This document shows positions 3,471 through 45,019 of a DNA stretch of 45,019 nucleotides, piece after piece. The translations under genes were made by a program, and so were the position numbers. The stretch comes from Escherichia phage vB_EcoS-22664B1, in sequence record MZ234008.1; one strand, given 5' to 3'. The notes beneath the pieces were generated by a model. That model saw only the letters and a program-made list of their open reading frames with translations. It made no database searches and had not been told where the DNA came from. How positions within the stretch are numbered: position 1 is the stretch's first letter; each line of letters starts with the position of its first letter.

Positions 3471-4668
3471 ATGCACCCGCAAACTAAAATTACCGACGAG
3501 CAATTGATCGCTGAATTGCAATCTGGCACTACCTCGAAAGATATTGCGAAGAAATACGGCATTGCCCTTCGAAATGTCTATATGCGCAAAGCCCGCCTGT
3601 CGAAGAAAGGCATTGGTCACGGTAACGATGCCGTAATCCGTAAGCGCGTTGCCGATGGCTTCGGCGTTAAGCGTGTATCAGCCCTGGTGCGCGGCAATGG
3701 CGAAGAGGTCATGTCCTGGGTCATCACCGAGCAAGACAAGGAGCGCCAGCTTGAAGCAATGCGCGCCGTTGTCGAGGGCATGAATAGCGAAATCACACCG
3801 GCAGCACCAGTGAGCGCTCCGCCAGTCCCGATCCAGGCGCTTGACCTGCTTAACCTGTATACCGTGTCGGACTTCCACCTGGGAATGTTGGCGTGGGGCG
3901 AGGAGACTGGCGAGGACTGGGATATGGCAATCGCTGAAGACCTGTTCTACCGCTGGTTTGTCGAAGCCTTCGCCCGCGCACCGGACGCTGGAAGACCTGT
4001 TCTACCGCTGGTTTGTCGAAGCCTTCGCCCGCGCACCGGACGCTGGCACTGCCGTAATCAATATTCTCGGTGATATGGCGCATTTTGACAGCCTCGACGC
4101 CGTCACGCCAGCCAGTGGTCACGTACTGGACGCAGATACCCGCTACCAGAAACTGGTCCGCTACATGATTCGCATGGTGCGCAACGTGGTTGAACTGGCG
4201 CTGCAAAAACACCATAAGGTCAAACTGTTAATCGTCCAGGGTAATCATGATGAGTCCGGTATGATTTGGCTGGCTGAGATGTTCAATACCCTGTACGAGA
4301 ACGAGCCGCGCGTTGATGTGGACACGTCCCCGGACGTTTACAAAATGGTGCAGCACGGTAAAACAACGCTGTTCTTCCACCACGGACACAAAGCACGCTT
4401 TGACGCCATCGAACCGGTCATGATTTCTAAATTCAGACAGGCTTTCGGGTCCAGTGAGTACAGCTACGCGCACGTGGGCCACTTGCACCACCAGAAGATT
4501 GTTGAATCCCGCAACATGATTGTTGAACAGCACCGGACCCTTGCCGCGAAAGACGCATATGCGAGCCGCGGCGGTTGGATGTCTGGTCGTAGTGCTAACG
4601 TCATCACCTATAGCGCCAACTACGGCGAAGTAGCGCGCTTAACCATTAGCCCGGAAATGTTGAAATGA
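3471..4668 (+). pseudogene. HTH domain + calcineurin-like metallophosphoesterase gene, split by a 55-bp tandem duplication (frameshift)
   Basis: N-terminal HTH-like segment; metallophosphoesterase motifs SDFHLG, GDMAHFD, GNHDE, HHGH, GHLHH. ORFs 3471..4073 and 3841..4668 are the same gene in two frames; removing one 55-bp copy (3936-3990 or 3991-4045) restores one ORF of about 380 aa. Confidence 0.6.
3936..4045. repeat. perfect tandem duplication, 2 x 55 bp
   Basis: Unit gaagacctgttctaccgctggtttgtcgaagccttcgcccgcgcaccggacgctg occurs twice in tandem; cgctg microhomology at the junction. Confidence 0.9.
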
Positions 4669-4884: not shown

Positions 4885-4910
4885 AGCCCGCCGATTTGGT
4901 GGGCTTTTTT
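4885..4910 (+). terminator. rho-independent terminator
   Basis: agcccgcc / ggtgggct stem (one G-U) followed by TTTTTT. Confidence 0.5.
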
Positions 4911-4994
4911 GTGCCTGTTATAATCCCCCTTAGATGGCTGGGCCGTCTCCTATGTTGCCGATGGTCGGCGCATATGCATAAAAGGGCTTATATC

Positions 4995-5546
4995 ATGGCA
5001 GAAATCAAAGTTAAGGGCCGTCGTGCCAAACTGGACGGACGAGTAGCAGTTACCCCGCGCCGTAAACCAGGCGAGCAAACAGAACACACCAATCTTGGAC
5101 CAGAGATCGAATACGGCAAGCGTCGTAAAGGCGGCAAATGCGGACGCCCGACCGACTACCGCACCGTGTATTGTGACCAGCTTCGTCGCTATTTCGCCGA
5201 TGCCGTAGCCTGGCAGATCAACTACTCCGACAAGGGCGCTGCGCAAGTCATCCCTCGAAACATGATGCCGACTCTCGGTCGATTCGCTGCAAATATTGGT
5301 GTAGGCATCGCCTGCCTGTATCGCTGGGCGCGCGCACATGAGGAGTTCGCCGAAGCGATGGCGGACGCTATGGAGTTGCAGAAAACTTTCCTGATGGAAG
5401 CTGGCGGCGTGACCATCGCGGCGGGCTTCGCTACGTTCCTGCTTAAAGCCAACCACGGCATTCGTGACGATGCGCCGCTGGATGACGACGAAGATGATAA
5501 CGGCGACGTCGTTGTGGAACCTACCGGCAAAGGCCAGGGTGAGTAA
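4995..5546 (+). CDS. terminase small subunit (putative)
   Basis: Position immediately upstream of TerL with overlapping stop/start; basic N-terminal region, acidic C-terminus; assignment mainly by synteny. Confidence 0.5.
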   Translation: MAEIKVKGRRAKLDGRVAVTPRRKPGEQTEHTNLGPEIEYGKRRKGGKCGRPTDYRTVYCDQLRRYFADAVAWQINYSDKGAAQVIPRNMMPTLGRFAANIGVGIACLYRWARAHEEFAEAMADAMELQKTFLMEAGGVTIAAGFATFLLKANHGIRDDAPLDDDEDDNGDVVVEPTGKGQGE

Positions 5547-6931
5547 TGCGTAACTATGCGGCAGAACACCGCGCACTTGAACGCGCGATCGCAAAGCGCA
5601 ACCGACCGCCACGCCCTACGCGCGTTGCGCAGGCCGTCCGCCTGTATCAGCCTGATTGCCTTCCGCACCAGGTAGAACTGCTGCGCGACACGAAGACTAA
5701 AATCCTCGGCCTTTGCTCCGGCTTCGGTGGCGGAAAGTCGTGGGTAGCGGCGCGTAAGGTCATCCAGCTTCTCACACTTAACCCCGGTCATGATGGCATC
5801 GTTACAGAACCGACTATTCCACTCCTGGTTAAAATCATGTACCCGGAGCTTGAGAAGGCATTCGACGAGGCTGGATTCCGGTGGAAGTTCAACAAGCAAG
5901 ACAAGATTTATAGCGTGCTGGTGAAAGGCAAATGGACCCGCGTTATTTGTGAGTCAATGGAGAACTACACCCGCCTGATCGGGGTTAACGCCGCGTGGAT
6001 TGTTGCCGATGAGTTCGACACCACTAAGCAAGACGTAGCTATGGCGGCATATCACAAATTGCTTGGTCGTCTGCGTGCGGGCCTGGTGCGCCAGTTCGTC
6101 ATCGTATCCACGCCTGAAGGCTTCCGGGCGATGTACCAGATTTTCGAAGTGGAGAAGGATAGCCAGAAACGTTTGATCAGGGCGAAGACTACCGATAATC
6201 ACCACTTACCGGCAGACTTTATCGACACGCTGCGGAGCCAGTACCCGGCAAACCTGATTGATGCATACCTGAACGGCCTGTTTGTCAACCTTACGTCTGG
6301 CGCGGTCTACAAGATGTTTAACCGCGAAGAGAACGCCAGCACCGAGGAAGTGCAACCGGATGATACGCTGATTATCGGTATGGACTTTAACGTAACGAAA
6401 ATGGCGGCGGTTGTGTACGTCAGACGGCAGCACACTACCGAGAACAAGGAGTTCCGCGACGAGATTCACGCAGTGGATGAATTCGTGGACCTGTTTGATA
6501 CCCCGGCTATGATTGAGGCGATCGAGGAGCGCTACCCCGATCATTGTGCTGCCGGTCGGGTCGTCGTTTACCCGGATAGCAGTGGCAAGTCTCGTAAGAC
6601 TGTTAACGCATCGTCGTCCGATATCGCGCAACTGGAAGACGCTGGCTTCGAGGTGGAGTATGACAGCGTCAACCCGCCTGTAAAAGACAGATTGATCGCG
6701 ATGAATACGATGATGTGCAACTCGAAGGGCGTGCGCCAGTATTTTGTCAACATGGATAAATGCCCTACACTAGCGAAATGTCTGGAACAGCAGGTTTATG
6801 ACCTGAAGAAAGGCGAGCCGGATAAAACCGCCGGTGTGGACCACATGAACGATGCCGCAGGCTACCCTGTTGCGCACCTGTTCCCAGTGATTCGTCCAAT
6901 CGCCGTTGTTCCAACTGTAGACTTCTACTAA
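5546..6931 (+). CDS. terminase large subunit
   Basis: Walker A-like LCSGFGGGKS and Walker B-like IVADEFD ATPase motifs plus C-terminal nuclease-sized domain; 461 aa. Confidence 0.85.
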   Translation: MRNYAAEHRALERAIAKRNRPPRPTRVAQAVRLYQPDCLPHQVELLRDTKTKILGLCSGFGGGKSWVAARKVIQLLTLNPGHDGIVTEPTIPLLVKIMYPELEKAFDEAGFRWKFNKQDKIYSVLVKGKWTRVICESMENYTRLIGVNAAWIVADEFDTTKQDVAMAAYHKLLGRLRAGLVRQFVIVSTPEGFRAMYQIFEVEKDSQKRLIRAKTTDNHHLPADFIDTLRSQYPANLIDAYLNGLFVNLTSGAVYKMFNREENASTEEVQPDDTLIIGMDFNVTKMAAVVYVRRQHTTENKEFRDEIHAVDEFVDLFDTPAMIEAIEERYPDHCAAGRVVVYPDSSGKSRKTVNASSSDIAQLEDAGFEVEYDSVNPPVKDRLIAMNTMMCNSKGVRQYFVNMDKCPTLAKCLEQQVYDLKKGEPDKTAGVDHMNDAAGYPVAHLFPVIRPIAVVPTVDFY

Positions 6932-15662: not shown

Positions 15663-15686
15663 GGGGCCAGCACGGCCCCTTTTTTA
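15663..15686 (+). terminator. rho-independent terminator (ggggcc agcac ggcccc + T-run)
   Basis: Member of a near-identical terminator family (also at 9973, 25641, 28981). Confidence 0.65.
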
Positions 15687-16064
15687 TTGGAGAATATTAC
15701 AATGGCGAAAGCACCACTCTTCACACTTGACCCTAAGCCGACCTTTAAGCTGCCGATTGAGATCCCGCGCCCTGGTGAGAACGAGCCGGGCAAGATGACC
15801 TTTACCGTCCGCCACCGCCCGATCGACGAGTTTTCGCAGACCATGCAGGACACCGAGCGCAAGCTGTCGGAATATGACGACAATGACCCGGACGGCTTTA
15901 ACGTTATGGTTGAGGCCATCATGCACGTCGCTGAAGGCTGGAATCTGCCAGACCAATTTAACGCTGAGAACGTCCGCCGCCTGGTAGTCAACTACCCCCG
16001 TGCGTTCGGCGTGTTCCACACCTCGTACTATCTCGAACTGATGGGATTGCGTGAAAAAAACTGA
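15687..16064 (+). CDS. tail assembly chaperone (lambda G-like)
   Basis: 125-aa ORF between major tail and tape measure; ends one codon after the slippery heptamer. Confidence 0.7.
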   Translation: MENITMAKAPLFTLDPKPTFKLPIEIPRPGENEPGKMTFTVRHRPIDEFSQTMQDTERKLSEYDDNDPDGFNVMVEAIMHVAEGWNLPDQFNAENVRRLVVNYPRAFGVFHTSYYLELMGLREKN

Positions 16065-16378
16065 TTGAGGCGGCGCGACGCTTTTATGGCCCGCCGCCAC
16101 CCTCCGAAGATTTAGCCGCTAGTTTATGGGGTGCGGCCCCCGAGGATGTTTGTCCACCTGTTGCGCTATGGCCCGACAACGCGAAGATAGTCGCCGTATT
16201 CACAGATTGCTCTACGCAATGGCGCACCGGATTCGGTGGGGCATACGGCATCGACTACGGCGTTCTGGAGTGGCTATTTAAGATGCACGGCATCGAAAAC
16301 GAGCAACGTGCATTTAAAGATATCAAGCTAATGGAGCGAATCGCGCTTGATGAAATGGCGCAACAAAACCCCGCATAA
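15687..16378 (+). CDS. tail assembly chaperone frameshift product (lambda GT-like), via -1 frameshift at 16055-16061
   Basis: The -1 frame is open from 16055 to TAA at 16376-16378 (107 codons, translated manually); slippery heptamer A AAA AAC sits at the end of the G ORF. Confidence 0.6.
16055..16061 (+). promoter_or_regulatory. -1 programmed ribosomal frameshift slippery heptamer A_AAA_AAC
   Basis: Heptamer in correct phase (zero-frame codons AAA AAC) immediately before the G stop codon. Confidence 0.6.
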
Positions 16379-16720
16379 TGAAGCGGGACAAAACGGGACG
16401 TCCCGCTTTGTCCCGTTTTGTCCCGCCACCTGCAAAACTGCATACCTACTCACTTTCATTGCATAAACTCAAAGCGGGACGAGCGGGACGTCCCGATCCG
16501 TCCCGCCCCCTAAATGTGCATACCTATTCAGATTTCGTGCATAAAACAAACGGGACAGAAAGCGGGACAAACATGGGGCGGGACAAAGCGGGACAGCACC
16601 CCGTCCCCGTCAGTGCTGCCGCGGGTTTCAGCCGATCGGGACAAGCGGGACAAACCCCAGTCTTTCAGACTAGACGGGGGTCAATGGCCCCCCTCGTCTG
16701 AGACTGAATAAGGTTTGTTT
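16378..16720. repeat. non-coding repeat region A: GGGAC palindromes, GCGGGACA iterons, TGCATA(A) repeats and conserved GC hairpin
   Basis: GCGGGACA at 16383, 16562, 16578, 16588, 16645; palindrome centred on GGGACGTCCC near 16397; about 165 bp (16548-16710) is about 85% identical to 44770-44937. Confidence 0.85.
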
Positions 16721-16774
16721 GAAATTCGCTGATACAATGTCAATCGGCAACTGCATAAAAAAGGGGACTGCATA

Positions 16775-19420
16775 ATGGCAGATCAAGCAGCAGGCATCAC
16801 GCTAAAGGCGGATGTTGCACAAATCAGAACGGCGAATACGGTGCTGGACTCATTCGCGCAGAAGTCCGAGAACACCGAAAACAAGGTTAAGAAATTAAAC
16901 GACACACTCGGCAACACGAAAAAGGTGACGGGTGACGCCGCGGGCGGAATGGGGAAGCTGGCAACTGAATCGCAGCGCGCCGCAGATGGCATGACGAAGC
17001 AGGAGCGACTTGCCAACCGCTTAGGCATGTCAACCAAAAACCTCGGCTTTGCCTCACGTAACGCCGCATTTCAGTTACAAGATATTGCGGTCACGCTAGA
17101 GATGGGTATGCCGGTGCACCGCGTCATGATTCAGCAGCTACCGCAGTTAACCGGGGCATTCGGAGGACTGGGTAATACGCTGCGTTATGTTGCTGGCTTT
17201 CTCGGTCCGGTAGGGATCGGCCTTGCTGCGGTAACGGCGACGTTAGGTGTAGGCGTGGCGATTACGTCCCGCGCAGAAAACCAGGTAGCGGCGCTGAATA
17301 AGACGCTGGCGCTATCCGGTAATATCTCTGGCCTCACCGCTAACCAGATCCTGGTGCTGTCGGAGAACGCCGAACGCATGGGCGGATCATTCAGCAAGAC
17401 GCGTGACACAATTCAGGCACTGGCGGCAGCAGGTGTGAAAGCTGGTGCTGACTTTGGCGCGCTGGCGAAAGTGGTGAACGACTTCGCGAAGGTGTCTAAT
17501 CAGCCGATCGCTGACGTGGTGGAGTCCATCTCCAAATTATCCAACGACCCGGTGGGCGGCTTGCGCGCACTGGCAGACAAGTATCACGTCGTTACCGAGG
17601 CGCAGATCCAGCAGGTGCGGTCACTGGTTACGACGGGTCGCGAAACCGAAGCGGTGGCGCTGGCTAACAAAACAGCCGCGGCGTCGTTCACCAGCATGAC
17701 CAACGAGATCAAGTCCAACATGGGTACGCTTGAGCGGTCAATGAACGTCGTCACATCGGCAGCTAAATCTATGTGGGATGCCATCCTGGATGTGGGCCGC
17801 GCGCAGTCCTCGAATGAGTCCGAGATGAAAGCGCGTGAGTCCTTGCAGCGCATGACAACGGCTTACTATGCCGAGATGAAAGCGGTAAACGCTGCCGGTG
17901 GGGTAATGACCGAGGCGCAGAAAGCACGAATTAACATGCTTTATAGCGAACTGGTCGCCCAGGAGAAGGTCGTAGCGTCACTCACCCTGCGCAACCGTGC
18001 TGAGCGCGACAACGCCAGCGCCGCGGACAAATCAGCGAAGGCGAACGAGGAGGCCAACCGCACCGCCCGCGACCGCGCCGCGTTCGAGAAGGAATTTGCC
18101 ACCAACGCGCAGAAGCGCGCCGACGAGATCGCCCGCCTCAATTTGCTGAATAAGCGCGGTGTGATTAACGAGAAAGAACTAGCCGAGGCGGTGAAGCAGG
18201 TCAACGAGCGCTACAAAGACCCCGCACCGAAGAAGGCGGCGGCTATTCGCGTGGATGCCGGTGTCAAAATGCTGGAGGTCGCACGGAGCGAACTGGCACA
18301 GCTTAAGGAGTCCGGCAAGCAGATCGAGGCCAATGCAACAACGCAGACCCGCACGCAGCGCGCACAGGCCGCGTTGAATAAGCTGGTGGCGGATAATGAG
18401 CAGATGGTCGCCGCAAGCAAGGAGCGCACTCTAACGGCAGCAGAAAAGCAGCAAATGGCGGAGTTCGAGGCGGTTAAAGCGGTACGCGAGCAGATCGTCG
18501 AAGAAGCCAAATTGCTGGACGCGAAAGAGAAGCAGATCAAGGCACACGCCCAGGTCGAGGCATTCATCAAGAACCAGAACGCTGAGCTAAGGGCCACCGC
18601 TGCGGGCTATGCGCTTTCCACTCGCGAAGCGGCTAACCTGCGCGAAGAATTACAGCTAATTGACCGCCTTCAGCGTGTCGGCGCTAACGATACTGATATT
18701 GACAACGCGGTGTCTAAGCTGCGCGAAGTGCAGGAAGCACAGACCGGTGCTAACGCCTCGTTGTGGGATGGCTTCAGCCGCGGGCTTAAGGATAGCGTGG
18801 ATGAAATGGGTAACGGCTACACGCAGATGACGTCACTCACAAAATTCACGTTCGGCGCTATGCAGGACACGATGAACAAGTTTTTCGAGACGGGCAAGCT
18901 GAGCGCGAAGGATATGGTTAAGTCCATCCTGAGCGAATTAATCAAGCTGGCTACCTCGCAGGCGTTCAAATCCATCGTTAGCGCTTTCGGCGGTGACGGC
19001 GGCAAAAACGGATTGTTCGGCGCTATCTTCTCGGGCCTCACTAAGAACGCAGACGGCGGAGCGTACGCAGGAGGCAATCTAGCGGCCTATTCCGGGCAAG
19101 TGGTAAGCCAGCCTACCTTTTTCAGTTATGGCGTTCAGGCGTTCGCTAAGGGCGCTGGATTGATGGGTGAGGCCGGACCCGAGGCCATCATGCCACTGAA
19201 GCGCGGGCCGGACGGGAAACTGGGCGTTGCCGCTGCCGGTGCTGGTGGGGGTGGGATGATTGTAACGACCAACGTGAACATGGGGACCGGTAAAACGGAC
19301 ACCAGTGTGAGCGGACCGGACCCACGCACCGCGCAGGCGTTCGGAAAGCAAATCACCGAGTCGGTCAAGGCCGAGATCGTGAAAGCGACGAAACCGGGTG
19401 GAGTACTTTACAAACGATGA
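16775..19420 (+). CDS. tail tape measure protein
   Basis: 881-aa ORF, Ala/Gln-rich coiled-coil-like sequence, C-terminal Gly-rich segment; directly after G/GT. Confidence 0.85.
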   Translation: MADQAAGITLKADVAQIRTANTVLDSFAQKSENTENKVKKLNDTLGNTKKVTGDAAGGMGKLATESQRAADGMTKQERLANRLGMSTKNLGFASRNAAFQLQDIAVTLEMGMPVHRVMIQQLPQLTGAFGGLGNTLRYVAGFLGPVGIGLAAVTATLGVGVAITSRAENQVAALNKTLALSGNISGLTANQILVLSENAERMGGSFSKTRDTIQALAAAGVKAGADFGALAKVVNDFAKVSNQPIADVVESISKLSNDPVGGLRALADKYHVVTEAQIQQVRSLVTTGRETEAVALANKTAAASFTSMTNEIKSNMGTLERSMNVVTSAAKSMWDAILDVGRAQSSNESEMKARESLQRMTTAYYAEMKAVNAAGGVMTEAQKARINMLYSELVAQEKVVASLTLRNRAERDNASAADKSAKANEEANRTARDRAAFEKEFATNAQKRADEIARLNLLNKRGVINEKELAEAVKQVNERYKDPAPKKAAAIRVDAGVKMLEVARSELAQLKESGKQIEANATTQTRTQRAQAALNKLVADNEQMVAASKERTLTAAEKQQMAEFEAVKAVREQIVEEAKLLDAKEKQIKAHAQVEAFIKNQNAELRATAAGYALSTREAANLREELQLIDRLQRVGANDTDIDNAVSKLREVQEAQTGANASLWDGFSRGLKDSVDEMGNGYTQMTSLTKFTFGAMQDTMNKFFETGKLSAKDMVKSILSELIKLATSQAFKSIVSAFGGDGGKNGLFGAIFSGLTKNADGGAYAGGNLAAYSGQVVSQPTFFSYGVQAFAKGAGLMGEAGPEAIMPLKRGPDGKLGVAAAGAGGGGMIVTTNVNMGTGKTDTSVSGPDPRTAQAFGKQITESVKAEIVKATKPGGVLYKR

Positions 19421-28980: not shown

Positions 28981-29004
28981 AGGGGCCGTACGGCCCCTTT
29001 TTTA
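28981..29004 (+). terminator. rho-independent terminator (aggggccg ta cggcccct + T-run)
   Basis: Perfect stem-loop plus T6; the - strand gene 29002..29577 ends here. Confidence 0.7.
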
Positions 29005-29577
29005 GTTTGAGTTTTCCCAATCCATTTTGCGCCGCACCAGCGGACTCTCATAATATTCCTTGCCTTCTACTTCCACCAACGGCCAATCGTTCACGATTAC
29101 GTACGGTTCCGCAATATCCTCAATCACGCCGTGCGCGCTATGTTGTCCGAACGATACACCCACCAGGATAACACCGGCAACTCGACGGGTTAGATACTCG
29201 CGAGCGCAACGGGCTTCTACCAGTCCGCGACGGATGCCGCTGGTGGCTTTGACCTCGTAGGTCCAGACGGCGTCAATCATGTGCTCACGGAAGTCGGGGC
29301 CGGACTTAACCTTGCGCTTACCGACCATTATAATATCGCCGCGGTCGATAGTATTGGCGCTAAACAGGCCGGTACGCATAAGTAAGCCTTGCGGAATACA
29401 ACTGCGTCCGCCTGCCTGCCCTTCAAGGTACATGCCCGCAAACATCTCGCCCAGCACACCGACAAGACGGCTTTGCTTGCACGCGTCAGACTTTAAGCGC
29501 CACTGGTCAAACTCGACGCTTGCTAACATTGCCGCGATGTGGAATTGTTTACCGGTTATTTCGTATTCGCCGTACAT
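29002..29577 (-). CDS. hypothetical protein (191 aa)
   Basis: Intact ORF, last gene of leftward operon; no motif recognised. Confidence 0.5.
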   Translation of the reverse strand: MYGEYEITGKQFHIAAMLASVEFDQWRLKSDACKQSRLVGVLGEMFAGMYLEGQAGGRSCIPQGLLMRTGLFSANTIDRGDIIMVGKRKVKSGPDFREHMIDAVWTYEVKATSGIRRGLVEARCAREYLTRRVAGVILVGVSFGQHSAHGVIEDIAEPYVIVNDWPLVEVEGKEYYESPLVRRKMDWENSN

Positions 29578-29619
29578 TGTGAAGTCCTCATTGCTGCGGG
29601 CCGAAGCCCGCTATTAGAA

Positions 29620-30142
29620 TTATTTAAGTGCGCTAGTCACCAGTGTTTTTTCCATGTTGCGGAAGTCTTCCGGCGTCATGAGAATTTTGGACCCATCCTC
29701 GCCAGTGAGCACGACCATAGGCTGGACTTCTTGATCTACCACACCGAAATTGGCGGCGTTAACCATCTTGCCAGCAGATGACGAAGGATGCCACGCACCG
29801 GCAATGTCAAGGGGCCAACCCTTGAGGCTGTCGAATTGCGCTGCCGTTGTATCGATCTGAATCTCATCATGCACGGTCATGTGCGACTCACCCAGTAGTG
29901 CGGCATACGCAACCAGGTCAACAATATTGTCTTCCTGGTGCTTACGGTGCTGGCGCACCAGCTTCAGGCAGATCAGGAAGGTCCAGGCTTCTTGCTCTGT
30001 AAGGTCGCGACCGGTAAGCGCGTTAAACACGGCAGCGATTTGCTTCGCGCTGCGTTCTTCTTTCGCGTTATCATAGCCGTTCTCTTTCCCGCGCTGTTCC
30101 ATAGTGGTGGCGGCGTTCTTGCAGTATTCAAATGCTTTCATG
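29620..30142 (-). CDS. hypothetical protein (174 aa)
   Basis: Start MKAFEY with AAAAGGAAAA upstream; preceded by putative promoter 30187-30216. Confidence 0.5.
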
Positions 30143-30186
30143 ATGTTTTCCTTTTTAGTGGGGGCCGGATTGCCCCCGACGAGATA

Positions 30187-30216
30187 ACTATAGTGCAACC
30201 AACCTATTGGTTGCAA
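30187..30216 (-). promoter_or_regulatory. putative sigma70-like promoter (-35 TTGCAA, 18-nt spacer, -10 TATAGT) overlapping palindrome TGCAACCAA-ccta-TTGGTTGCA
   Basis: Read on - strand; perfect 9-bp inverted repeat at 30194-30216 inside the spacer region. Confidence 0.4.
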
Positions 30217-30674
30217 GTAAATTTTGCTACGTTTATAGAATAAATTTTAGGGACCAGATCGCTGCACGCCCGACGGATGGCTTCGATATTCTTCGGGCAG
30301 TCTTCAATGATGACCAGTTCCGACACGTCCGCATAGCACACCATTTTGAACACAGCGCACGCCTTAAACTCTGGCGGAGGGGTGTCGTCCAGCATGTGGC
30401 GCATGAACAACCGGCCCGTCGGGAATACTTCCAATTGCTTGGCGGTCGTGTCCCAGCATTCGCGCTGCCGGTTAGTCAGATACGCTATCTCGAAGCCTTG
30501 CTCTTTGTACATGCGCAGCAGCGGCAGCATATCCATGTTAAGGTCTTCGCGTACGTGTGCTTTGTGCCACTTCGCCCAAAAGGTTGATTTGGTTTTTATG
30601 CCGGGCACCAGGTCAGCACGCGCATCACTTGAACCATTAATAACGCCATCCAGATCACAAATCAGTAGTTTCAT
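30204..30674 (-). CDS. HAD-superfamily phosphatase-like protein
   Basis: N-terminal motif LICDLDGVIN (DxDG), later LTNR and C-terminal Asp-containing segments typical of HAD phosphatases/nucleotidases. Confidence 0.5.
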   Translation of the reverse strand: MKLLICDLDGVINGSSDARADLVPGIKTKSTFWAKWHKAHVREDLNMDMLPLLRMYKEQGFEIAYLTNRQRECWDTTAKQLEVFPTGRLFMRHMLDDTPPPEFKACAVFKMVCYADVSELVIIEDCPKNIEAIRRACSDLVPKIYSINVAKFTCNQ

Positions 30675-30895
30675 TTTAAGCTCTCAATAAGGGTGTAGCG
30701 GGCGCTTCGCGCAGTAACGGAGTTGCATACAAAATGGCAACGCTTGGTTATGACAAGCCAGCCGGTGAGGTCCAGGCCCAGGATGTATTCCGGGCGGCTG
30801 GCGCGCATCACTCGGTCGCGGCGCGGGTCAATGATGAAGTCCCTTTGCATTTGGTCCACTACCGCGGGGTCGCGGTCAACGATTAAGATATTCAT
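30671..30895 (-). CDS. hypothetical protein (74 aa)
   Basis: ORF with overlapping stop/start couplings to both neighbours. Confidence 0.4.
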   Translation of the reverse strand: MNILIVDRDPAVVDQMQRDFIIDPRRDRVMRASRPEYILGLDLTGWLVITKRCHFVCNSVTARSARYTLIESLK

Positions 30896-31361
30896 GTAGT
30901 TCTCTCTCGCTCATTATTTCAATTTGTGCGCTGCCGATGGGCGGCGCTTCGTCAAATATTATCAATTGCTGGCACTTGTTATTGCTCGGCCCAACTTCGC
31001 CGGTCACAGCATGGATAAATCGCACACGCCAGTCCAGAAGAATTATCATATTGGCAGTCTTCCGGGCCAGCTTCGCCCACTTCGTTGACGTGTCCTGATT
31101 CAGTAGCATGACAGTACGGCGTCCGTGCGCAGCGCACTCGACCCACGGCAGCGGATCGGAGTACGGCGGGTTGCACCACTTCCACCCTTTCAACTCTGAC
31201 CAGTCCGCATCAAGCGCGCTATGCTCTGCCGTGAAGTAGCGCGGTAGCAGGTGATTGGCGTCGCTTGCAGCCATATCGTAACGAAATCGGTACTTACGGC
31301 GCAGCGGTTTAAATAAAGCTGGCGGAGTGCGCCAGCTATCCTTTTGCTCACTCTTCTGCAT
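30876..31361 (-). CDS. DNA N6-adenine methyltransferase (phage Dam-like)
   Basis: Motifs WRTPP.LF, RF.YDMAAS..N, YFT and CNPPYS match the phage N6-adenine methyltransferase family (motif IV NPPY). Confidence 0.75.
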   Translation of the reverse strand: MQKSEQKDSWRTPPALFKPLRRKYRFRYDMAASDANHLLPRYFTAEHSALDADWSELKGWKWCNPPYSDPLPWVECAAHGRRTVMLLNQDTSTKWAKLARKTANMIILLDWRVRFIHAVTGEVGPSNNKCQQLIIFDEAPPIGSAQIEIMSERELHEYLNR

Positions 31362-31812
31362 GGTCGGTGTCTATCGCGTAAAGGGCAATCTTTTCCCCTT
31401 TCTTCAGGATTCGCTGCAATCGCTGCGTCTCCGACACCCCCAAAGGGCGCGCGTCCGGGTAGAAGTTGCCGTTTGTTGGGTGTCGCCACGCCATAAGCAC
31501 CAGGTCTTTACGGGCGACCGCGGACTGGCGGCCCTTCGGACGCACGTACGCCTCGGCACGTTTGCAATGCTCACGCAGACCTTCAGCCGTCATGCGATTA
31601 AGCACCGCGGTGGTTGTGTATCCGGTGCGCTGCATAATCCCCATCAGTTCGAACAGCAGTTCGAAGCGCTCCTCTAACTCCTTGCGCACCTTCTCCTCAC
31701 CTTCATAGCTCGCAAGGTAGGTGTCTGCCAGCGCGTTCGCGCGTTCGGCCTGTTCGCGGGCTTCGAGGCACTGCGCGGCCCAGTAATTTTTCTCTTCTTG
31801 TAAAATTTTCAT
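31348..31812 (-). CDS. hypothetical protein (154 aa, coiled-coil-like N-terminus)
   Basis: Intact ORF in operon. Confidence 0.45.
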   Translation of the reverse strand: MKILQEEKNYWAAQCLEAREQAERANALADTYLASYEGEEKVRKELEERFELLFELMGIMQRTGYTTTAVLNRMTAEGLREHCKRAEAYVRPKGRQSAVARKDLVLMAWRHPTNGNFYPDARPLGVSETQRLQRILKKGEKIALYAIDTDHAEE

Positions 31813-32055
31813 TTATTTAAGCTCCGTAGTGCGGATTTCATCGCGTGGGATAAATTTGCCGTCCATCTCTACCCAGCAAACACCGTAGCGCCATTGGGTA
31901 TTACGGCCTGTTTGCTCGGCGTACACGGTCTGGCATTCGTAGCGGTCGACGTAGTAAATAGCCGTAGAAGGGATACCAATACAACCGGCAAACATGAGGG
32001 TTAGTATTACCCAAAATCGAAGGTCGCCATCGTAGTCGAAAAACAATGATTTCAT
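31813..32055 (-). CDS. small membrane protein (80 aa)
   Basis: Start MKSLFF with GGAGAC RBS-like sequence; hydrophobic helix FWVILTLMFAGCIGI. Confidence 0.45.
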   Translation of the reverse strand: MKSLFFDYDGDLRFWVILTLMFAGCIGIPSTAIYYVDRYECQTVYAEQTGRNTQWRYGVCWVEMDGKFIPRDEIRTTELK

Positions 32056-32073
32056 CGTAATGTCTCCAGGTAT

Positions 32074-32101
32074 TAAAAAGGGCGTCCAACCGGACACCCT
32101 T
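32074..32101 (-). terminator. putative - strand terminator/attenuator hairpin (gggtgtcc ggtt ggacgccc + U-run)
   Basis: Hairpin followed by T-run when read on - strand; lies between genes 32136..32459 and 31813..32055. Confidence 0.35.
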
Positions 32102-32135
32102 AAGATAATGCAACCAATCTAATTACGCAACCAAT

Positions 32136-32459
32136 TTATTCATAAAAATTTGGGTCGCGCGCTACGTCTACCAGATACAAGTTGCTCATGCGGTTGCCGT
32201 AGTGCCCTGGCGTGCGCTGGCGGCACACAACGGCGAAACCTGGAGGGATTGTATTGCCCGTCTCGATAATCCACGCCACGCGCGCGCCAGACAGCGTCTT
32301 GCCGTTGCATTCGATACGCGTACCGCCATCGGCAGTGTTAAGGTTGCCAATCTTGCAGCCGGTAGACTTCAGACGGATGACGCCGGTCTTACTGTCGTAG
32401 GTGAATAGTTGGTTAGTCATTGCTACCGAGAAGTCGATGGCTTCGAATGTAGTATTCAT
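32136..32459 (-). CDS. HNH-like endonuclease (putative)
   Basis: Motif ...ARVAWIIETGNTIPPGFAVV...GNRMSNLYLV resembles the HNH/AP2-type homing endonuclease pattern (G..IP.G..V.H.DG...NN...NL.LV) but lacks a clear His-Asp pair. Confidence 0.35.
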   Translation of the reverse strand: MNTTFEAIDFSVAMTNQLFTYDSKTGVIRLKSTGCKIGNLNTADGGTRIECNGKTLSGARVAWIIETGNTIPPGFAVVCRQRTPGHYGNRMSNLYLVDVARDPNFYE

Positions 32460-33151
32460 TTTAAATTTTCCTCATTGACTGCAATTGCGAAGCCGCGCGG
32501 AGTGAGCGACCGGATTAATTTGGTGCGGGCAGATTTGCCACCGAGGCGACTATACTGCTTCGAGTACCCTTTTTCAACGAATACCGGCTTTTTCTCCGGC
32601 ATACGAAAGCCATTGCCGGTCCATAAACAGGTCAGCTTTGGATATGAATCGCGGTCGTTGATGTATTCCGGGAACAACGGATGTACGTCATCCTCCGGCA
32701 GATAGCCGCCATACTCCCACGGATCAAACGAGTGGTCTGGCTTGCGCCACTGGGTGGATAGCACACTGCGCGGATTCTCAATCATATATGGCACTTCAAA
32801 GAAGTCACCCAGGTAAGCGGCAATCTTCGCGGTGCGCACTGCCTTAAGCTGAAAGGCGGGGTCTTTCGCACGCTTGCACGGGAAAGCTGTCGCACCGCTC
32901 ACCGCCAGATCCGTACACGGCGGAAACGCGTAGATAATATCCGGCGTGCCGAAATCGCCATTCATCGCGCGGTCCACGAAGTCCAGATCGATAAACTCGT
33001 TACGATAGCGGATACCGCGACCATAAATCCGGTAGTCAAGGTAAGACCCGTGATCGGCTTCCGAGTAGTTGAAACAGTAGCATTTATGCCCCATCTCGGC
33101 AGCGCGCTCTATCATCAAGCCGCTGCCGTCAAATAATGACCAGATAATCAC
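32456..33151 (-). CDS. DNA cytosine-C5 methyltransferase-like protein (putative, short)
   Basis: Motif I-like SLFDGSG, motif IV-like FPPC, motif VI-like ENP; only 231 aa, so domain completeness is uncertain. Confidence 0.4.
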   Translation of the reverse strand: MIIWSLFDGSGLMIERAAEMGHKCYCFNYSEADHGSYLDYRIYGRGIRYRNEFIDLDFVDRAMNGDFGTPDIIYAFPPCTDLAVSGATAFPCKRAKDPAFQLKAVRTAKIAAYLGDFFEVPYMIENPRSVLSTQWRKPDHSFDPWEYGGYLPEDDVHPLFPEYINDRDSYPKLTCLWTGNGFRMPEKKPVFVEKGYSKQYSRLGGKSARTKLIRSLTPRGFAIAVNEENLK

Positions 33152-34572: not shown

Positions 34573-34576
34573 ATCT

Positions 34577-34801
34577 TTATTCCGCCTTTTTCCAGACTTC
34601 GGTTTCACTGTTCCAATTCCTCTTTGTGGCGTCGTAGTTGGTGGCGTGTCCAATGTGCACACCGGTCGCGCGGAAGCTCTTAAACTTCTGCCAGCACACT
34701 GTCAACGGCAGCGGGTAATTCATGCCTGCGATAAACCATACGCGATCGCCAGGTTTGCACTCGCCCAGCTTGGTGAGTCGGTAATGTTCTTTCATCGTCA
34801 T
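34577..34801 (-). CDS. hypothetical protein (74 aa)
   Basis: Intact ORF in operon. Confidence 0.4.
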   Translation of the reverse strand: MTMKEHYRLTKLGECKPGDRVWFIAGMNYPLPLTVCWQKFKSFRATGVHIGHATNYDATKRNWNSETEVWKKAE

Positions 34802-34837
34802 GCCTCCAAAAATGGCGGGACAAGCCCGCCGTATTGA

Positions 34838-35518: not shown

Positions 35519-35522
35519 AATC

Positions 35523-42406: not shown

Positions 42407-44671
42407 ATGAGCTTAATTAAATTCGCAGTAACAAGACCCGCTAAAAAAGGCGAAAAAGCCAGGGCGGAAAACTTCGAGATGACCACTGATGAGTTTTTCG
42501 AATTTATCAATGATGCGAAAGAAATCTCCTCGGTGCACATCAACAAGACTGAAGATAAAGCCGAGTATGCGCGCCGCAAGCGTAAGGCCGATGGCATCGT
42601 GGCCTATACCAATGATGGGTTACGCCGCAAGACCAGTGCGGTCGACCGCTCGATCCTGTTCTTCGATATTGACCGCACCGACACCCGCACATTACGCCGC
42701 TGCCGTAAAGCGTTCACCGACGCTGGTCTGGAGCATGTATTCCACACCACGACCGGCGACCGTCACCCACTGAAAGGCGGCACACGTTGCGCCCGTTTCC
42801 TGGTGCTCACTGACAAGCCTGTACCGGCTGAAGACCTGGGCCGCGTCCAGTATGCGCTATTAGACCAACTGGGCCTGTCAGATGTGGACTTCGACGATTG
42901 TACGAAAGACACCAACCGCCTTATGTACCTGCCTCACCAGCAGTCTGTCATAAAGTGCCACTATGGAAAGCGCGCCCGTGTCCGTCGTCTGCTTCGCCTG
43001 GCTGACAAGCTGGGAGTGGAGAAAGAGGAAGTGCGCCGCGAACTGACCCAGGGCGCCGATGGCGTGGCGGACGGCATTCTGGATTGGTGCTTCCAGGCTG
43101 GCTTTGAACCACTGTCATCCGGTCGCGGTTATGAAGTGCCTTGCCCGAACGAGCACCTGCATAGCGGCGGCGGGTCGACGGCTATCATGGTTAAGGATGG
43201 CGAGATCCGTTTCAAGTGTATGCACACCGGCAACGAATGCTGTTCCGAACTGAATAAACACCAGCACCTGGCGTTACGTCTGATTGGTATCCCGGACCAC
43301 TTGAACGTCGAGCCACACAACATGTCACGCAAGCAAATCGCCGCCATCCTTCCGGGACTGGACGACGAGGAAGTGGAATCGTGCTATGAACATATTGTTG
43401 ATGCGGTCGGAGACGGCGACGAGTACGGCGAATGCACCGACGCTGACCTGGACAACGAGCCGGTCGCTCTGTTCAGTAAGCACGACCCGATTATCGAAGG
43501 CCTGGTCAACTTCAAATCTACCTGGTATATGGCGGGTGAGTCGAACATTGGTAAGTCGTTCTACGTGCTGGGCCAGATGGGCGCTGTTGCCGCGGGGATT
43601 CCGTTCGGTGGCGCGAAGGTCGTCCAGTCGCATTGCTTCTATTTCGATGCGGAAGGTGGCGAAGCCTCCAACCAGCGTAAGGAAGCATTGCAGATTAAAT
43701 ACGAGCACGACCTCGACAAGCTGCACATTATCGACCTGCAATCACGCGGCTGGGATATTACCAGCAAGTCAGGCTTGCGCGAGGTTATCAGCTTTATCAA
43801 CCGCACCGCTAACGGGGAGCCGGTTGGCCTGGTGGCCTTCGACTCACTCAACCAGACTGTAGCGCTGCGGTCCGCTGATGCCAAACCGTTCGACGAGAAC
43901 AACGCAAGCGATATGGGTGAAGTGGTCAAAGCGCTGAAGTCCATTGCGGAAAATACAGGCGGCAGTGCGGGCGTCATCCATCACCCGGCTAAGGGTGCAA
44001 ACGGCAGCAGATCCCCACGCGGGTCCGGCGCGCTTCATGGTGCTGTCGATTCTGCGTTCTTCCTGGAACAGCCGGACGATAATCAGCCAGGCCAACTCAA
44101 CCTGTATCACGAAAAATCCCGTAACGGCATCAAGCAAGCGCCGCGTGGCTTCGTCCTGCTCAAGTGCAAGGTTAAGGTGGATCTCCGCAAGTCTGATGCG
44201 TTCGAAGCCCACCAATCCACCAGCACCGGGCCAGACTTCGGTGATGTGGTTGCCGGTTGGGACGTCAAGCCAATTGCATCTACACCACGCGACGAGACTC
44301 TTTACCTCGTACCGGTCGCCCTGGCACCGTTCGCTATCGAACAGGCTAAGGCAGCAGGCAAGGCAGCAGTTAAGGAAGAGAACACCGCCGGACCGCGCAA
44401 CGAGAAAGAGAAGGTGCTTTATGCGGCACTGGAAAAACTGATGGAAGATAACCCGGACCATACTGGATTCAGTAAATCGGCAATTGTCCGCCAGGCTGGA
44501 CTTGCGAAAGGTGGCACATCGACGAAGGCAATTGACGATATGGTGGAGCGCGGCGTGCTCGGGTTTTATACAGATCCACACACCGGGGCCATCTATGGGT
44601 CGTCGAATCTGGTCATCAAATCGGATATACCCATCACGCTTTCAGCGACCGATGATGACTTAAAAGATTAA
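42407..44671 (+). CDS. DNA primase/helicase (N-terminal primase-like domain, C-terminal RecA/DnaB-like ATPase)
   Basis: N-terminal acidic motif LFFDIDRTD; C-terminal Walker A GESNIGKS and Walker B-like LVAFDSLN, plus HHPAKG; 754 aa. Confidence 0.75.
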   Translation: MSLIKFAVTRPAKKGEKARAENFEMTTDEFFEFINDAKEISSVHINKTEDKAEYARRKRKADGIVAYTNDGLRRKTSAVDRSILFFDIDRTDTRTLRRCRKAFTDAGLEHVFHTTTGDRHPLKGGTRCARFLVLTDKPVPAEDLGRVQYALLDQLGLSDVDFDDCTKDTNRLMYLPHQQSVIKCHYGKRARVRRLLRLADKLGVEKEEVRRELTQGADGVADGILDWCFQAGFEPLSSGRGYEVPCPNEHLHSGGGSTAIMVKDGEIRFKCMHTGNECCSELNKHQHLALRLIGIPDHLNVEPHNMSRKQIAAILPGLDDEEVESCYEHIVDAVGDGDEYGECTDADLDNEPVALFSKHDPIIEGLVNFKSTWYMAGESNIGKSFYVLGQMGAVAAGIPFGGAKVVQSHCFYFDAEGGEASNQRKEALQIKYEHDLDKLHIIDLQSRGWDITSKSGLREVISFINRTANGEPVGLVAFDSLNQTVALRSADAKPFDENNASDMGEVVKALKSIAENTGGSAGVIHHPAKGANGSRSPRGSGALHGAVDSAFFLEQPDDNQPGQLNLYHEKSRNGIKQAPRGFVLLKCKVKVDLRKSDAFEAHQSTSTGPDFGDVVAGWDVKPIASTPRDETLYLVPVALAPFAIEQAKAAGKAAVKEENTAGPRNEKEKVLYAALEKLMEDNPDHTGFSKSAIVRQAGLAKGGTSTKAIDDMVERGVLGFYTDPHTGAIYGSSNLVIKSDIPITLSATDDDLKD

Positions 44672-44759
44672 ATTTTGCGCGCATTGGTTGCCATTTTGAG
44701 TGTTTTTAGCTGGTCGCATTGGTTGCCGTGTAGTGTAAATATAGTGAATAGTTATGCAG

Positions 44760-44940
44760 TTTTATTGCATAAAGTAAGCGGGACAAAAAGCGGGACAGAC
44801 AGGGGGCGGGACAAGGCGGGACAGCACCCCCGTCCCGCCCCGGATTACGCGGCTTGCGGGGGAGCGGGACAGGCGGGACAAACCCCAGTCTTTCAGACTA
44901 GACGGGGGTCAGTTGGCCCCCTCGTCTGAGACTGCATAAA
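44760..44940. repeat. non-coding repeat region B: GCGGGACA iterons, inverted GGGAC and conserved GC hairpin (homologous to 16548-16710)
   Basis: GCGGGACA at 44778, 44789, 44806, 44816, 44864, 44873; the 3' 60 nt is nearly identical to region A. Confidence 0.85.
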
Positions 44941-45019
44941 ATCCGGGATTGCATAATACACGGCAACATGATGTGAATTGCGGTCGTTGATGAACTAGGC
45001 AACCAATGCGAGTTGTATT

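What the first reader, a model, noticed from the sequence alone, without database searches (positions are those of the whole stretch)
16378..16720. Two-copy conserved non-coding element of GCGGGACA iterons, GGGACGTCCC-type palindromes and a conserved GC hairpin
Two non-coding regions about 28 kb apart (16378-16720 and 44760-44940) share about 165 bp at roughly 85% identity, in the same orientation. Each carries five to six direct GCGGGACA copies, inverted GGGAC copies and a near-identical 3' block gcgggacaaaccccagtctttcagactagacggggg...gccccctcgtctgagactg that can fold into a GC-rich hairpin. Region A also has a near-perfect 19-bp palindrome centred on GGGACGTCCC and repeated TGCATA(A) units. 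Region A interrupts the tightly packed tail operon between the GT chaperone and tape measure; region B follows the primase-helicase gene. Candidate roles are a replication origin with iterons, a packaging or late-transcription control site with a qut-like hairpin, or a binding array for a phage HTH protein. An extended -10 (TGaTACAAT, 16730-16738) lies between region A and the tape measure start.
Basis: seen in the sequence. Interest (0 to 1): 0.85.

Follow-up and report, generated by a model that had tools for sequence, protein, structure and literature searches.

The report
Duplicated phage replication-origin-like iteron element
Two conserved non-coding repeat arrays in this E. coli phage look like a replication origin and a second copy of it, probably read by the phage's own primase-helicase; this is a familiar kind of element that has not been worked out for this phage group.

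Summary
The window is a Dhillonvirus genome, 100% identical over the 1.8 kb compared to Escherichia phage vB_EcoS-101114B2. Regions 16378-16720 (A) and 44740-44940 (B) share about 190 nt at 83% identity in the same orientation. Twelve of the 14 exact GCGGGACA copies lie in these two regions. All 158 related records carry the element, nearly all of them twice. The Sodalis phage SO-1 GenBank entry already flags 'region A' and 'region B'.

Distant relatives keep the same layout directly after the primase-helicase gene. The layout is AT-rich 13-mers, four direct iterons and one inverted, a spacer, two more iterons, then hairpins. The iteron word differs between relatives (CGGACAA, TCCGACA, GGGGGAGA, ACTCGCAA and others). 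The word tracks the C-terminal winged-helix domain of the primase-helicase, not the upstream helix-turn-helix (HTH) protein. The winged helix and the iteron region swap together as a cassette. Edwardsiella phage eiAU-183 also has two regions at the same two sites, both with a different iteron.

Best reading: B is an iteron-type replication origin. A is a duplicated origin-like site inside the tail operon, comparable to SPP1 oriL/oriR or P4 ori/crr. No binding or initiation experiment exists. Confidence is about 0.6. It is a new member of a known kind, of moderate interest.

The parts
16383..16426 (.). Region A module 1: a palindromic iteron set (2 forward and 3 reverse CGGGAC cores) with perfect 17-nt arms
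   Evidence: DNA fold -22.5 kcal/mol, z = -8.2. The architecture is conserved in 14 Dhillonvirus region A copies.
16434..16467 (+). Region A AT-rich unit 1 (ctgcatacctac...ttgcataaa), homologous to the AT-rich unit 5' of the iterons in region B
   Evidence: Direct repeat D4; TGCATAA hits; local GC 42.5%.
16474..16506 (.). Region A module 2: a palindromic iteron set (2 forward and 2 reverse CGGGAC cores)
   Evidence: -14.7 kcal/mol, z = -4.1; conserved in other Dhillonviruses.
16512..16545 (+). Region A AT-rich unit 2, which aligns with 44744-44777 of region B
   Evidence: local GC 37.5%.
16550..16595 (+). Region A: four direct iterons (CGGGACA) with start-to-start spacing of 12, 16 and 10 nt, identical to region B
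   Evidence: Invariant in all 31 A and B copies aligned.
16636..16652 (+). Region A: a pair of direct iterons 9 nt apart, just 5' of the hairpin
16658..16706 (.). Region A GC-rich hairpin or inverted repeat (CAGTCT..CAGAC..GGGGG loop CCCCC..GTCTG..AGACTG)
   Evidence: z = -3.65. The stems are invariant and the loop is free to vary within the genus. Stems change in a compensatory way across iteron classes.
16730..16738 (+). Extended -10-like TGATACAAT upstream of the tape measure gene, inside a roughly 45-nt insert that is specific to region A
   Evidence: Read from sequence. Conserved in all region A copies and absent from region B. Not called by the -35/-10 scan.
16745..16775 (+). CGGCAAC box and two TGCATAA boxes, also present 3' of the region B hairpin. 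The second TGCATAA box overlaps the tape measure ATG.
   Evidence: The CACGGCA(A/G)C box is conserved in relatives of all iteron classes.
42407..44671 (+). Primase-helicase gene, the proposed initiator. Domains: AEP PrimPol domain, Cys/His cluster, RepA-like AAA_25 helicase, C-terminal winged helix (about residues 665-735) and an acidic tail.
44744..44777 (+). Region B AT-rich unit (gtgaatagttatgcagttttattgcataaagtaa), the candidate DNA-unwinding element. The GTGAATAGTTATGCA unit is conserved across iteron classes.
   Evidence: 27.5% GC at 44740-44779. Conserved in phiEap-2, SaI_NFG_5577 and IMG/VR loci.
44778..44838 (+). Region B: four direct iterons (GCGGGACA at 44778, 44790, 44806, 44816) and one inverted copy (core at 44832-44837)
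44864..44880 (+). Region B: a pair of direct iterons 9 nt apart
44886..44934 (.). Region B GC-rich hairpin or inverted repeat
   Evidence: z = -3.17.
44933..44968 (+). Two TGCATAA boxes and the CACGGCAAC box 3' of the hairpin

Best explanation
Region B is the phage's iteron-type replication origin. It sits directly downstream of the gene for its initiator, a single 754-aa protein. That protein combines an AEP primase domain, a RepA-like hexameric-helicase domain and a C-terminal winged-helix DNA-binding domain. The proposed mechanism is as follows. The winged helix reads the 8-bp iterons (four direct, one inverted, then two direct). Bound protomers assemble the helicase next to the AT-rich 13-mer unit, which melts. 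The conserved GC-rich hairpin beside the iterons is then extruded and serves as a priming or loading signal, comparable to the ssi hairpins used by the RSF1010 RepB' primase. Region A is a duplicated and expanded copy of the same element: three iteron-plus-AT-rich units and the same hairpin. It lies in the tail operon between the chaperone and tape measure genes and is read by the same protein. It could act as a second origin, or as a bound roadblock or enhancer. Precedents are SPP1 oriR, which is proposed to stall forks and trigger the theta-to-sigma switch, and P4 crr. Region A also carries its own extended -10 promoter, which would restart tape measure transcription. Shown here: the anatomy, genus-wide conservation, the change of iteron word between relatives, its association with the winged-helix domain, and the protein folds. 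Inferred: binding, melting, priming and any initiation at either site.
For: (1) Position. In every relative examined, an iteron array lies within 100 nt downstream of the primase-helicase stop. These relatives have 37-97% protein identity and comprise 42 IMG/VR loci plus phiEap-2, SaI_NFG_5577, Tsm2 and eiAU-183.

(2) A common layout with changing specificity. The layout is AT-rich GAATAGTTATGCA units, then 3-4 direct and 1 inverted iteron, a GGGTTT..GCCGA spacer, 2 iterons, hairpins, and a TTATTCA/CACGGCARC box. The iteron word differs between groups: GCGGGACA, CGGACAA, TCCGACA, GGGGGAGA, AGGGATAA, GGGGATG, ACTCGCAA, GCAACCAAC.

(3) The word tracks the primase-helicase C-terminus. L049 and L037 have 96% identical cores and near-identical upstream HTH proteins, but only 44% identical winged helices, and their iterons differ. 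L044 and L046 show core 98%, HTH 93%, winged helix 48%, and different iterons. Same-iteron pairs keep the winged helix at 65-81% despite HTH identity of 36-40%.

(4) In both near-identical pairs, DNA similarity stops at residue ~664, just before the winged helix, and resumes after the iteron/hairpin region. The winged helix and origin therefore move as one cassette.

(5) The unlinked copy follows too. Dhillonvirus region A, 28 kb away, uses the same word as region B. In eiAU-183 both regions, at the same two sites, use GCAACCAAC and share a 52-nt block at 88%.

(7) An AT-rich trough of 27.5% GC lies immediately 5' of an iteron block of 67-80% GC.

(8) The selection pattern is non-coding and structural. 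Iterons and hairpin stems are invariant in 31 copies. Hairpin loops and spacers vary, 1-nt indels occur, and the 107-aa ORF is not conserved. Hairpin stems covary across classes (83.8% paired against 72.6% in shuffles, 0 of 500).

(9) Precedent. SPP1 has oriL at the initiator gene and oriR interrupting the morphogenesis genes. Both have direct repeats plus an AT-rich unwinding element and both are bound by gp38 (PMC6316719).

(10) HK578 escapers from the OLD defence map to the helicase-primase gene and its promoter. The authors link OLD to hairpins at iteron origins (bioRxiv 10.64898/2026.07.10.737580).
Confidence: 0.6

Rival explanations
1. The regions are transcription-control cassettes. The iterons would be operator sites for a phage regulator, and the hairpins would act as RNA-level terminator, antiterminator or processing signals. 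Together they would divide the long rightward transcription unit into replication genes, small genes plus head genes, and tape measure plus tail genes.
For: Both regions sit between gene blocks on the same strand. Region A carries a conserved extended -10 (TGATACAAT) 37 nt upstream of the tape measure start. Relatives have a strong promoter-like TTGCAC-N17-TATTGT just after the element. TGCATAA boxes are enriched. WFI annotators called the first palindrome a terminator.
Against: No U-tract follows any of the forward-strand hairpins, and the scan finds no forward-strand terminator inside region A. No Rfam family matches. The iteron word is independent of the adjacent HTH regulator: identical HTH proteins occur with three different words. 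The word instead follows a domain of the replication protein. An AT-rich unit followed by an iteron array is an origin layout rather than an operator layout.
Confidence: 0.17
2. The regions are packaging (pac) or terminase recognition sites.
For: Repeated short boxes resemble TerS binding arrays such as SPP1 pacL/pacR (from memory). Several GenBank records start or end beside the element. The eiAU-183 linear record ends inside its region A.
Against: Headful packaging with circular permutation is reported for the genus (PMC9022532). Two sites 28 kb apart in a 45-kb headful genome make no sense for pac. The sites lie 5-10 kb from the terminase genes (4896-6931). The iteron word follows the primase-helicase, not the terminase. 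Record ends at a two-copy repeat are more simply explained as assembly breakpoints.
Confidence: 0.03
3. Region A is not a firing origin. It would be a bound accessory site: a replication-fork barrier or mode switch (as proposed for SPP1 oriR), a cis enhancer (as P4 crr), or a handcuffing or titration site that regulates initiation at region B.
For: Only region B's position is ancestral. phiEap-2 and SaI_NFG_5577 have a single cluster and no gap between the chaperone and tape measure genes. Region A has extra palindromic iteron sets not found in B. The SPP1 model proposes fork stalling at gp38-bound oriR.
Against: Region A retains every part of B, including the AT-rich unit, the iteron spacing and the hairpin, so nothing in the sequence disqualifies it as an origin. 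This is a sub-variant of the main explanation rather than a true alternative.
Confidence: 0.15
4. The element is a selfish or mobile repeat, or a recombination hotspot, duplicated by chance and without function for the phage.
For: There are two copies. Same-genome A-B identity slightly exceeds between-genome A-B identity (0.90 against 0.87, p = 0.026; 0.92 against 0.89, p = 0.005), which suggests gene conversion.
Against: The element holds a fixed position in all 158 records. Iterons and stems are invariant while loops vary. The layout is retained across genera while the iteron word changes. No transposase or homing endonuclease is attached.
Confidence: 0.05

Closest known systems
Bacillus phage SPP1 oriL / oriR (bound by gp38)
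   Same: SPP1 is a roughly 44-kb headful siphovirus with two similar origin sequences, each built of direct repeats plus an AT-rich unwinding element. One lies at the initiator gene. The other lies in a non-coding segment that interrupts the conserved order of virion-assembly genes. The same initiator binds both (PMC6316719).
   Different: The initiator is unrelated: gp38 works with a separate loader (gp39) and DnaB-type helicase (gp40), whereas here there is one fused primase-helicase-winged-helix protein. oriL lies inside gene 38, whereas region B lies just after the gene. The repeats share no sequence similarity. Binding is shown for SPP1 and only inferred here.
Satellite phage P4 ori / crr with the alpha protein (from memory; not retrieved here)
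   Same: P4 has octamer iterons in direct and inverted orientation in two separate cis regions. They are read by the C-terminal winged-helix domain of a multifunctional primase-helicase.
IncQ plasmid RSF1010 oriV (iterons, AT-rich region, ssiA/ssiB hairpins; RepC, RepA, RepB')
   Different: RSF1010 uses three separate proteins, whereas here there is one polypeptide. Its iterons are 20-mers, not 8-mers. It has two ssi hairpins on opposite strands, whereas here there is one palindromic hairpin region. Priming at the hairpin is untested here.
Lambdoid ori with O protein
   Same: Initiator specificity domain and cognate iterons are exchanged together between related phages as one linked module.
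   Different: Lambda iterons lie inside the O gene and are read by the N-terminal domain of a protein that has no enzymatic activity. Lambda relies on host DnaB and DnaG.

Membership tests
Iteron-type replication origin | Array of three or more short direct repeats at roughly helical spacing | tested here: met
   There are 4 + 2 direct CGGGACA copies with spacing of 12, 16, 10 and 9 nt, identical in A and B. They are invariant in 31 copies.
Iteron-type replication origin | AT-rich unwinding element adjacent to the iterons | tested here: met
   GC is 27.5% at 44740-44779 and 37.5% at 16520-16559, directly 5' of the arrays. The repeated 13-mer-like units are conserved across genera.
Iteron-type replication origin | Origin linked in cis to the gene of its initiator | tested here: met
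   Region B starts about 70 nt after the primase-helicase stop. The position is the same in all 42 IMG/VR loci and 4 GenBank relatives.
Iteron-type replication origin | Iteron sequence co-varies with a DNA-binding domain of the initiator | tested here: met
   The caveat of physical linkage is partly answered by the unlinked region A and by eiAU-183.
Iteron-type replication origin | Initiator binds the iterons, and replication starts there | not testable with these tools
   This needs EMSA or ChIP and origin mapping. No published data were found.
Iteron-type replication origin | DnaA boxes (present in many but not all such origins) | tested here: not met
   TTATNCACA with up to 1 mismatch occurs 29 times against 28 expected. 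Two lie in A and none in B.
Dual origin of the SPP1 oriL/oriR type | Two similar origin sequences in one genome, one at the initiator gene and one in the late-gene region | tested here: met
   The same arrangement occurs in eiAU-183.
Dual origin of the SPP1 oriL/oriR type | Homology of the initiator to SPP1 gp38 | not tested
   The domain architecture (AEP, AAA_25, winged helix) differs from what I recall of gp38. No direct comparison was run.
P4 ori/crr with alpha-type initiator | Multifunctional primase-helicase with a C-terminal winged-helix origin-binding domain | tested here: met
RSF1010-type ssi priming signal | Conserved hairpin next to the iterons that is recognised by an AEP primase | tested here: inconclusive
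   The hairpin is present and its complementarity is maintained across classes. The primase domain resembles RepB'. Recognition and priming are untested, and the same pattern would fit a palindromic double-stranded DNA site.
Rho-independent terminator | GC-rich stem-loop followed directly by a U-tract on the transcribed strand | tested here: not met
   No forward-strand terminator was called within 16378-16720 or 44672-45019. The only forward-strand site nearby is at 15663-15679, after the major tail protein gene.
Known structured RNA (Rfam) | Match to a curated covariance model | tested here: not met
   Only microRNA-precursor models matched, at 18-22 bits against gathering thresholds of 77-180 bits. 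Nothing matched in region B.

The most novel reading that the evidence does not exclude
These phages may use an all-in-one initiator (AEP primase, SF4 helicase and winged helix) whose winged-helix-plus-origin cassette is exchanged between phages like an incompatibility or specificity module. Dhillonviruses and Eiauviruses may have installed a second, expanded origin in the tail operon. That site could work as a programmed replication-mode switch or fork barrier, and could couple replication to tape measure and tail gene expression through its own promoter. Its perfect iteron palindromes could also be the hairpin structures sensed by defence systems such as OLD or Lamassu.
Probability: 0.2. Interest if true: 0.65.

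Novelty: new member of a known kind. Interest (0 to 1): 0.45.

Why it matters
Dhillonviruses and the related Guernseyvirinae-like phages are among the most frequently isolated coliphages and Salmonella phages. They are used in phage collections and in therapy work, yet I found no published description of their replication origin.

The result gives three usable things:
- a concrete origin candidate;
- a named reader domain, the winged helix at the primase-helicase C-terminus;
- a natural series of eight or more iteron/winged-helix specificities, which allows direct swap experiments.

It also offers a Gram-negative counterpart to the SPP1 oriL/oriR puzzle of why a lytic siphovirus keeps a second origin among its late genes. 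It suggests where hairpin-sensing defence systems might see these phages.

On the practical side, the ORFs annotated as hypothetical proteins across region A in many GenBank records are probably spurious. The two-copy repeat may also explain assembly break points.

Tried and rejected
- **GC skew as an origin marker.** It follows gene orientation only, with its minimum at the divergent promoter near 42 kb.
- **DnaA boxes in the TGCATAA/TTATGCA units.** They are not enriched.
- **Coding potential of the 107-aa ORF at 16378-16701.** The ORF is absent or frame-shifted in several Dhillonviruses.
- **Rfam families.** None matched.
- **Sequence search of the primase-helicase against PDB.** Nothing significant was found.
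- **Plasmids carrying the same initiator as a replicon.** The only hits were one 44-kb record that looks like a phage genome and one partial hit.
- **IMG/VR scan for ACTCGCAA pairs**, meant to test for a second copy in that lineage.
- **Literature searches for a described origin in Dhillonvirus or Guernseyvirinae.** None was found. Two early searches were poorly targeted.
- **The full text of the SO-1 GenBank note.** It could not be read, because the tool truncates it after 'possible ...'.

Full report
**Identity of the window.** The 1.8 kb around the finding is 100% identical to Escherichia phage vB_EcoS-101114B2 (MZ234014). It is 92-99% identical to 157 other records, almost all Dhillonvirus siphoviruses of E. 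coli, Shigella and Sodalis. The gene map has three blocks:
- A long forward-strand block holds small genes, terminase (4896-6931), head, tail, the tail assembly chaperone (15687-16064 plus its frameshift extension ending at 16378), the tape measure gene (16775-19420) and tail tip genes, running to about 28975.
- A reverse-strand replication block (29002-41843) holds an SNF2 helicase, a family A DNA polymerase, an Enc34-type SSB and a DUF2800 nuclease.
- A short forward-strand unit holds a 109-aa HTH protein (42067-42396) and a 754-aa primase-helicase (42407-44671).

**Checking the observation.**
- The two regions align at 83% over about 190 nt, with a nearly identical 3' block.
- GCGGGACA occurs 14 times against 2.35 expected (0 of 100 shuffles reach 14), and 12 of those copies lie in the two regions.
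- The CGGGAC core occurs 15 times in region A and 7 times in region B.
- Region A is modular. Two palindromic iteron sets (16383-1642 6 and 16474-16506) are each followed by an AT-rich TGCATA...TGCATAAA unit. Then comes a third unit collinear with region B: four direct iterons, a spacer, two iterons and a GC-rich hairpin.
- The hairpins fold better than shuffles, with z about -3.2 to -3.7. The first palindrome reaches z = -8.2.
- The 107-aa ORF across region A is not conserved in other Dhillonviruses, and single-base indels are common. The region is therefore non-coding, although several GenBank records annotate hypothetical proteins there.

**Prior notice.** The Sodalis phage SO-1 record (GQ502199) annotates both sites as repeat regions. 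Its note reads 'region A; consists of direct, inverted and palindromic repeat sequences; sequence similarity with region B; possible ...'. Phage 'rolling' has a repeat_region there, and WFI calls the first palindrome a terminator. I found no paper that analyses the element or maps an origin in this group.

**Conservation within the genus.** All 158 records hold the element, nearly all with two places. I aligned 31 copies, 14 of region A and 17 of region B, from IMG/VR and the window.
- The iteron cores and both arms of the hairpin are invariant.
- The hairpin loop, the inter-iteron spacers and the central spacer vary freely.
- The central spacer is type-specific, with an A-type and a B-type.
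- Region A carries a roughly 45-nt insert containing TGATACAAT.

Within the shared blocks, A-B identity is as high as A-A or B-B identity between phages. It is slightly higher within a genome than between genomes (0.90 against 0.87, p = 0.026; 0.92 against 0.89, p = 0.005). This points to common constraint plus some gene conversion.

**The decisive comparison: distant relatives.** A tblastn search with the primase-helicase found relatives at 32-49% identity in Guernseyvirinae-like phages. In phiEap-2, SaI_NFG_5577 and Tsm2, the gene is followed by 300-600 nt of non-coding DNA. An IMG/VR scan gave 42 loci. Most have the same layout directly after the stop codon:
- one or two iterons;
- two AT-rich GAATAGTTATGCA units;
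- three or four direct iterons and one inverted;
- a GGGTTT..GCCGA spacer;
- two iterons;
- a small hairpin plus a G-run/C-run hairpin;
- a TTATTCA and CACGGCA(A/G)C box;
- a promoter-like TTGCAC-N17-TATTGT.

The iteron word, however, differs by lineage: GCGGGACA (Dhillonvirus, including a 68%-identity outlier), ACTCGCAA, GGGGGAGA, CGGACAA, TCCGACA, AGGGATAA, GGGGATG and GCAACCAAC. A conserved scaffold with a changing repeat word is the signature of a co-evolving sequence-specific DNA-binding protein.

**Which protein reads the iterons?** The upstream HTH protein is excluded for the relatives. One 73-aa allele is essentially identical in loci with CGGACAA, GGGGGAGA and TCCGACA iterons. A second allele is identical in loci with CGGACAA, TCCGACA and GGGGATG.

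The last ~95 residues of the primase-helicase do follow the word:

| Pair | Iterons | Core identity | Upstream HTH identity | Winged-helix identity |
|---|---|---|---|---|
| L049 / L037 | different | 96% | 82% | 44% |
| L044 / L046 | different | 98% | 93% | 48% |
| L037 / L044 | same | 82% | 36% | 65% |
| L038 / L050 | same | 78% | 40% | 81% |

The 82% HTH figure for L049/L037 reflects only an N-terminal ORF-calling extension; the proteins are otherwise near-identical.

In both near-identical pairs, DNA similarity stops at the same point, residue ~664. In L044/L046 it resumes right after the iteron/hairpin region. The C-terminal domain and the repeats are therefore exchanged as one cassette.

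**Linkage caveat and the unlinked copy.** The winged-helix coding segment and region B are adjacent, so co-inheritance alone could produce the association. Two facts argue for recognition in trans.
- Region A in Dhillonviruses, 28 kb away, uses the same word with the same spacing.
- Edwardsiella phage eiAU-183 (Eiauvirus) also has long non-coding regions at the same two places, after the primase-helicase gene and between the chaperone and tape measure genes. Both contain GCAACCAAC repeats and a shared 52-nt block at 88% identity. Its region A has a GC hairpin much like the Dhillonvirus one.

By contrast, phiEap-2 and SaI_NFG_5577 have a single cluster and no gap before the tape measure gene. 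Region B's position is therefore ancestral, and region A is a later duplication held in at least two genera.

**Hairpin.** Each class folds into either one long imperfect hairpin or a small hairpin plus a G/C hairpin, with z from -1.9 to -4.3. The small stem changes in a compensatory way: AGTCT/AGACT, ATCATC/GATGA, ATCCTC/GAGGA, CTCCT/AGGAG. In the count, 83.8% of cells pair against 72.6% in shuffles, and 13 double changes occur against 5.9 expected (0 of 500). This shows that complementarity is selected. It does not tell whether the relevant form is extruded DNA, single-stranded DNA, RNA, or a palindromic duplex site. No U-tract follows, so it is not an intrinsic terminator. No Rfam family matches.

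**Interpretation.** The layout is that of an iteron-type origin: an initiator gene in cis, an AT-rich unit (27.5% GC), an iteron array and hairpins. The closest analogues are these:
- SPP1 has oriL at the initiator gene and oriR interrupting the morphogenesis genes. Both have direct repeats plus an AT-rich unwinding element and both are bound by gp38. oriR is proposed to stall forks and trigger the theta-to-sigma switch (PMC6316719).
- P4 has ori and crr, read by the alpha primase-helicase through a C-terminal winged helix (from memory).
- RSF1010 oriV has iterons plus ssi hairpins used by an AEP primase and a RepA helicase. The fold match to RepB' supports this comparison.

A 2026 preprint reports that HK578 escapers from the OLD defence map to the helicase-primase gene and its promoter. 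It argues that OLD senses hairpins at iteron origins. That would fit the perfect iteron palindromes of region A, but no origin was mapped in that work.

**What remains inferred.** Binding of the winged helix to the iterons, melting, priming at the hairpin, and initiation at either site are all untested. Whether region A fires or acts as a barrier, enhancer or titration site is also open. A transcriptional role is plausible in addition, given the conserved extended -10 before the tape measure gene and the promoters after region B in relatives. A packaging role is unlikely, for three reasons: headful packaging is reported, there are two sites, and the word follows the replication protein.

**Verdict.** The proposed HTH binder is probably wrong, and the primase-helicase winged helix is the better candidate. 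This is a new member of a known kind of element. The repeats themselves were already flagged in a GenBank record, and the interest is moderate.

Noticed in passing
window 44680-44692 (-), 44715-44727 (-), 44998-45010 (+), 71-80 and 102-111 (ATTGGTTGCA): A second repeat family, GGCAACCAATGCG, brackets region B and the start of the next operon. It has three perfect 13-mers plus two shorter copies just before the ATG at 132. The word resembles the GCAACCAAC iterons of eiAU-183. Related GCCAACA boxes flank the element in Guernseyvirinae-like relatives. These may be operators of the upstream HTH regulator, or relics of another iteron specificity.
   Followed up: partly
window 44400-44560 (primase-helicase residues ~665-715): A profile of the C-terminal domain matches the 33-residue repeats of the TALE-like protein BurrH, through the motif G-F/Y-S-x-S-E-I-V-K-I-A-G-x-x-G-G. 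The summed E-value is 9e-27, built from about 20 weak per-repeat hits. The AF2 model is a single winged helix, so this is probably a local helix-turn resemblance, but it is striking.
   Followed up: partly
window 44645-44668 (end of the primase-helicase): A conserved acidic C-terminal tail (D-D-D-L-K/E-D; the D-L pair is invariant in all relatives) follows the winged helix. From memory, it resembles the acidic tails with which T7 gp4 and gp2.5 contact the DNA polymerase.
   Followed up: no
window 16378-16701 and 16514-16711: ORFs of 107 and 65 aa lie across region A, and many GenBank Dhillonvirus records annotate 'hypothetical protein' here. The ORFs are not conserved between genomes, so these annotations are probably spurious.
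   Followed up: yes
L049 vs L037 and L044 vs L046, locus positions 4492-4495 (equivalent to window ~44398): In two independent pairs, recombination breakpoints fall at the same point in the linker before the winged-helix domain. This suggests a preferred module boundary inside the gene.
   Followed up: partly
L081 (eiAU-183) ends; several Dhillonvirus records: The linear eiAU-183 record begins and ends inside its region A. Several Dhillonvirus records start or stop within a few hundred bases of the element, and the window itself ends about 80 nt after region B. The likely cause is assembly breaks at a two-copy repeat rather than physical termini.
   Followed up: no
proteins P0030-P0107: Dozens of Salmonella enterica genome assemblies contain 42-44 kb contigs encoding a 44%-identical primase-helicase, annotated 'AAA family ATPase'. 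These are probably whole phage genomes co-assembled with their hosts, either as a carrier state or as contamination.
   Followed up: no
window 15663-15679: A canonical intrinsic terminator (GGGGCC..GGCCCC followed by TTTTTT) lies between the major tail protein gene and the tail chaperone gene. The chaperone genes may therefore be expressed at a lower level by read-through.
   Followed up: no
window 42067-42396: The 109-aa protein upstream of the primase-helicase matches a PHROG labelled 'transposase' and Pfam HTH_23/Sigma70_r4_2 through its C-terminal HTH only. It is a different protein family from the 73-aa Cro-like HTH found at the same position in Guernseyvirinae-like relatives.
   Followed up: partly
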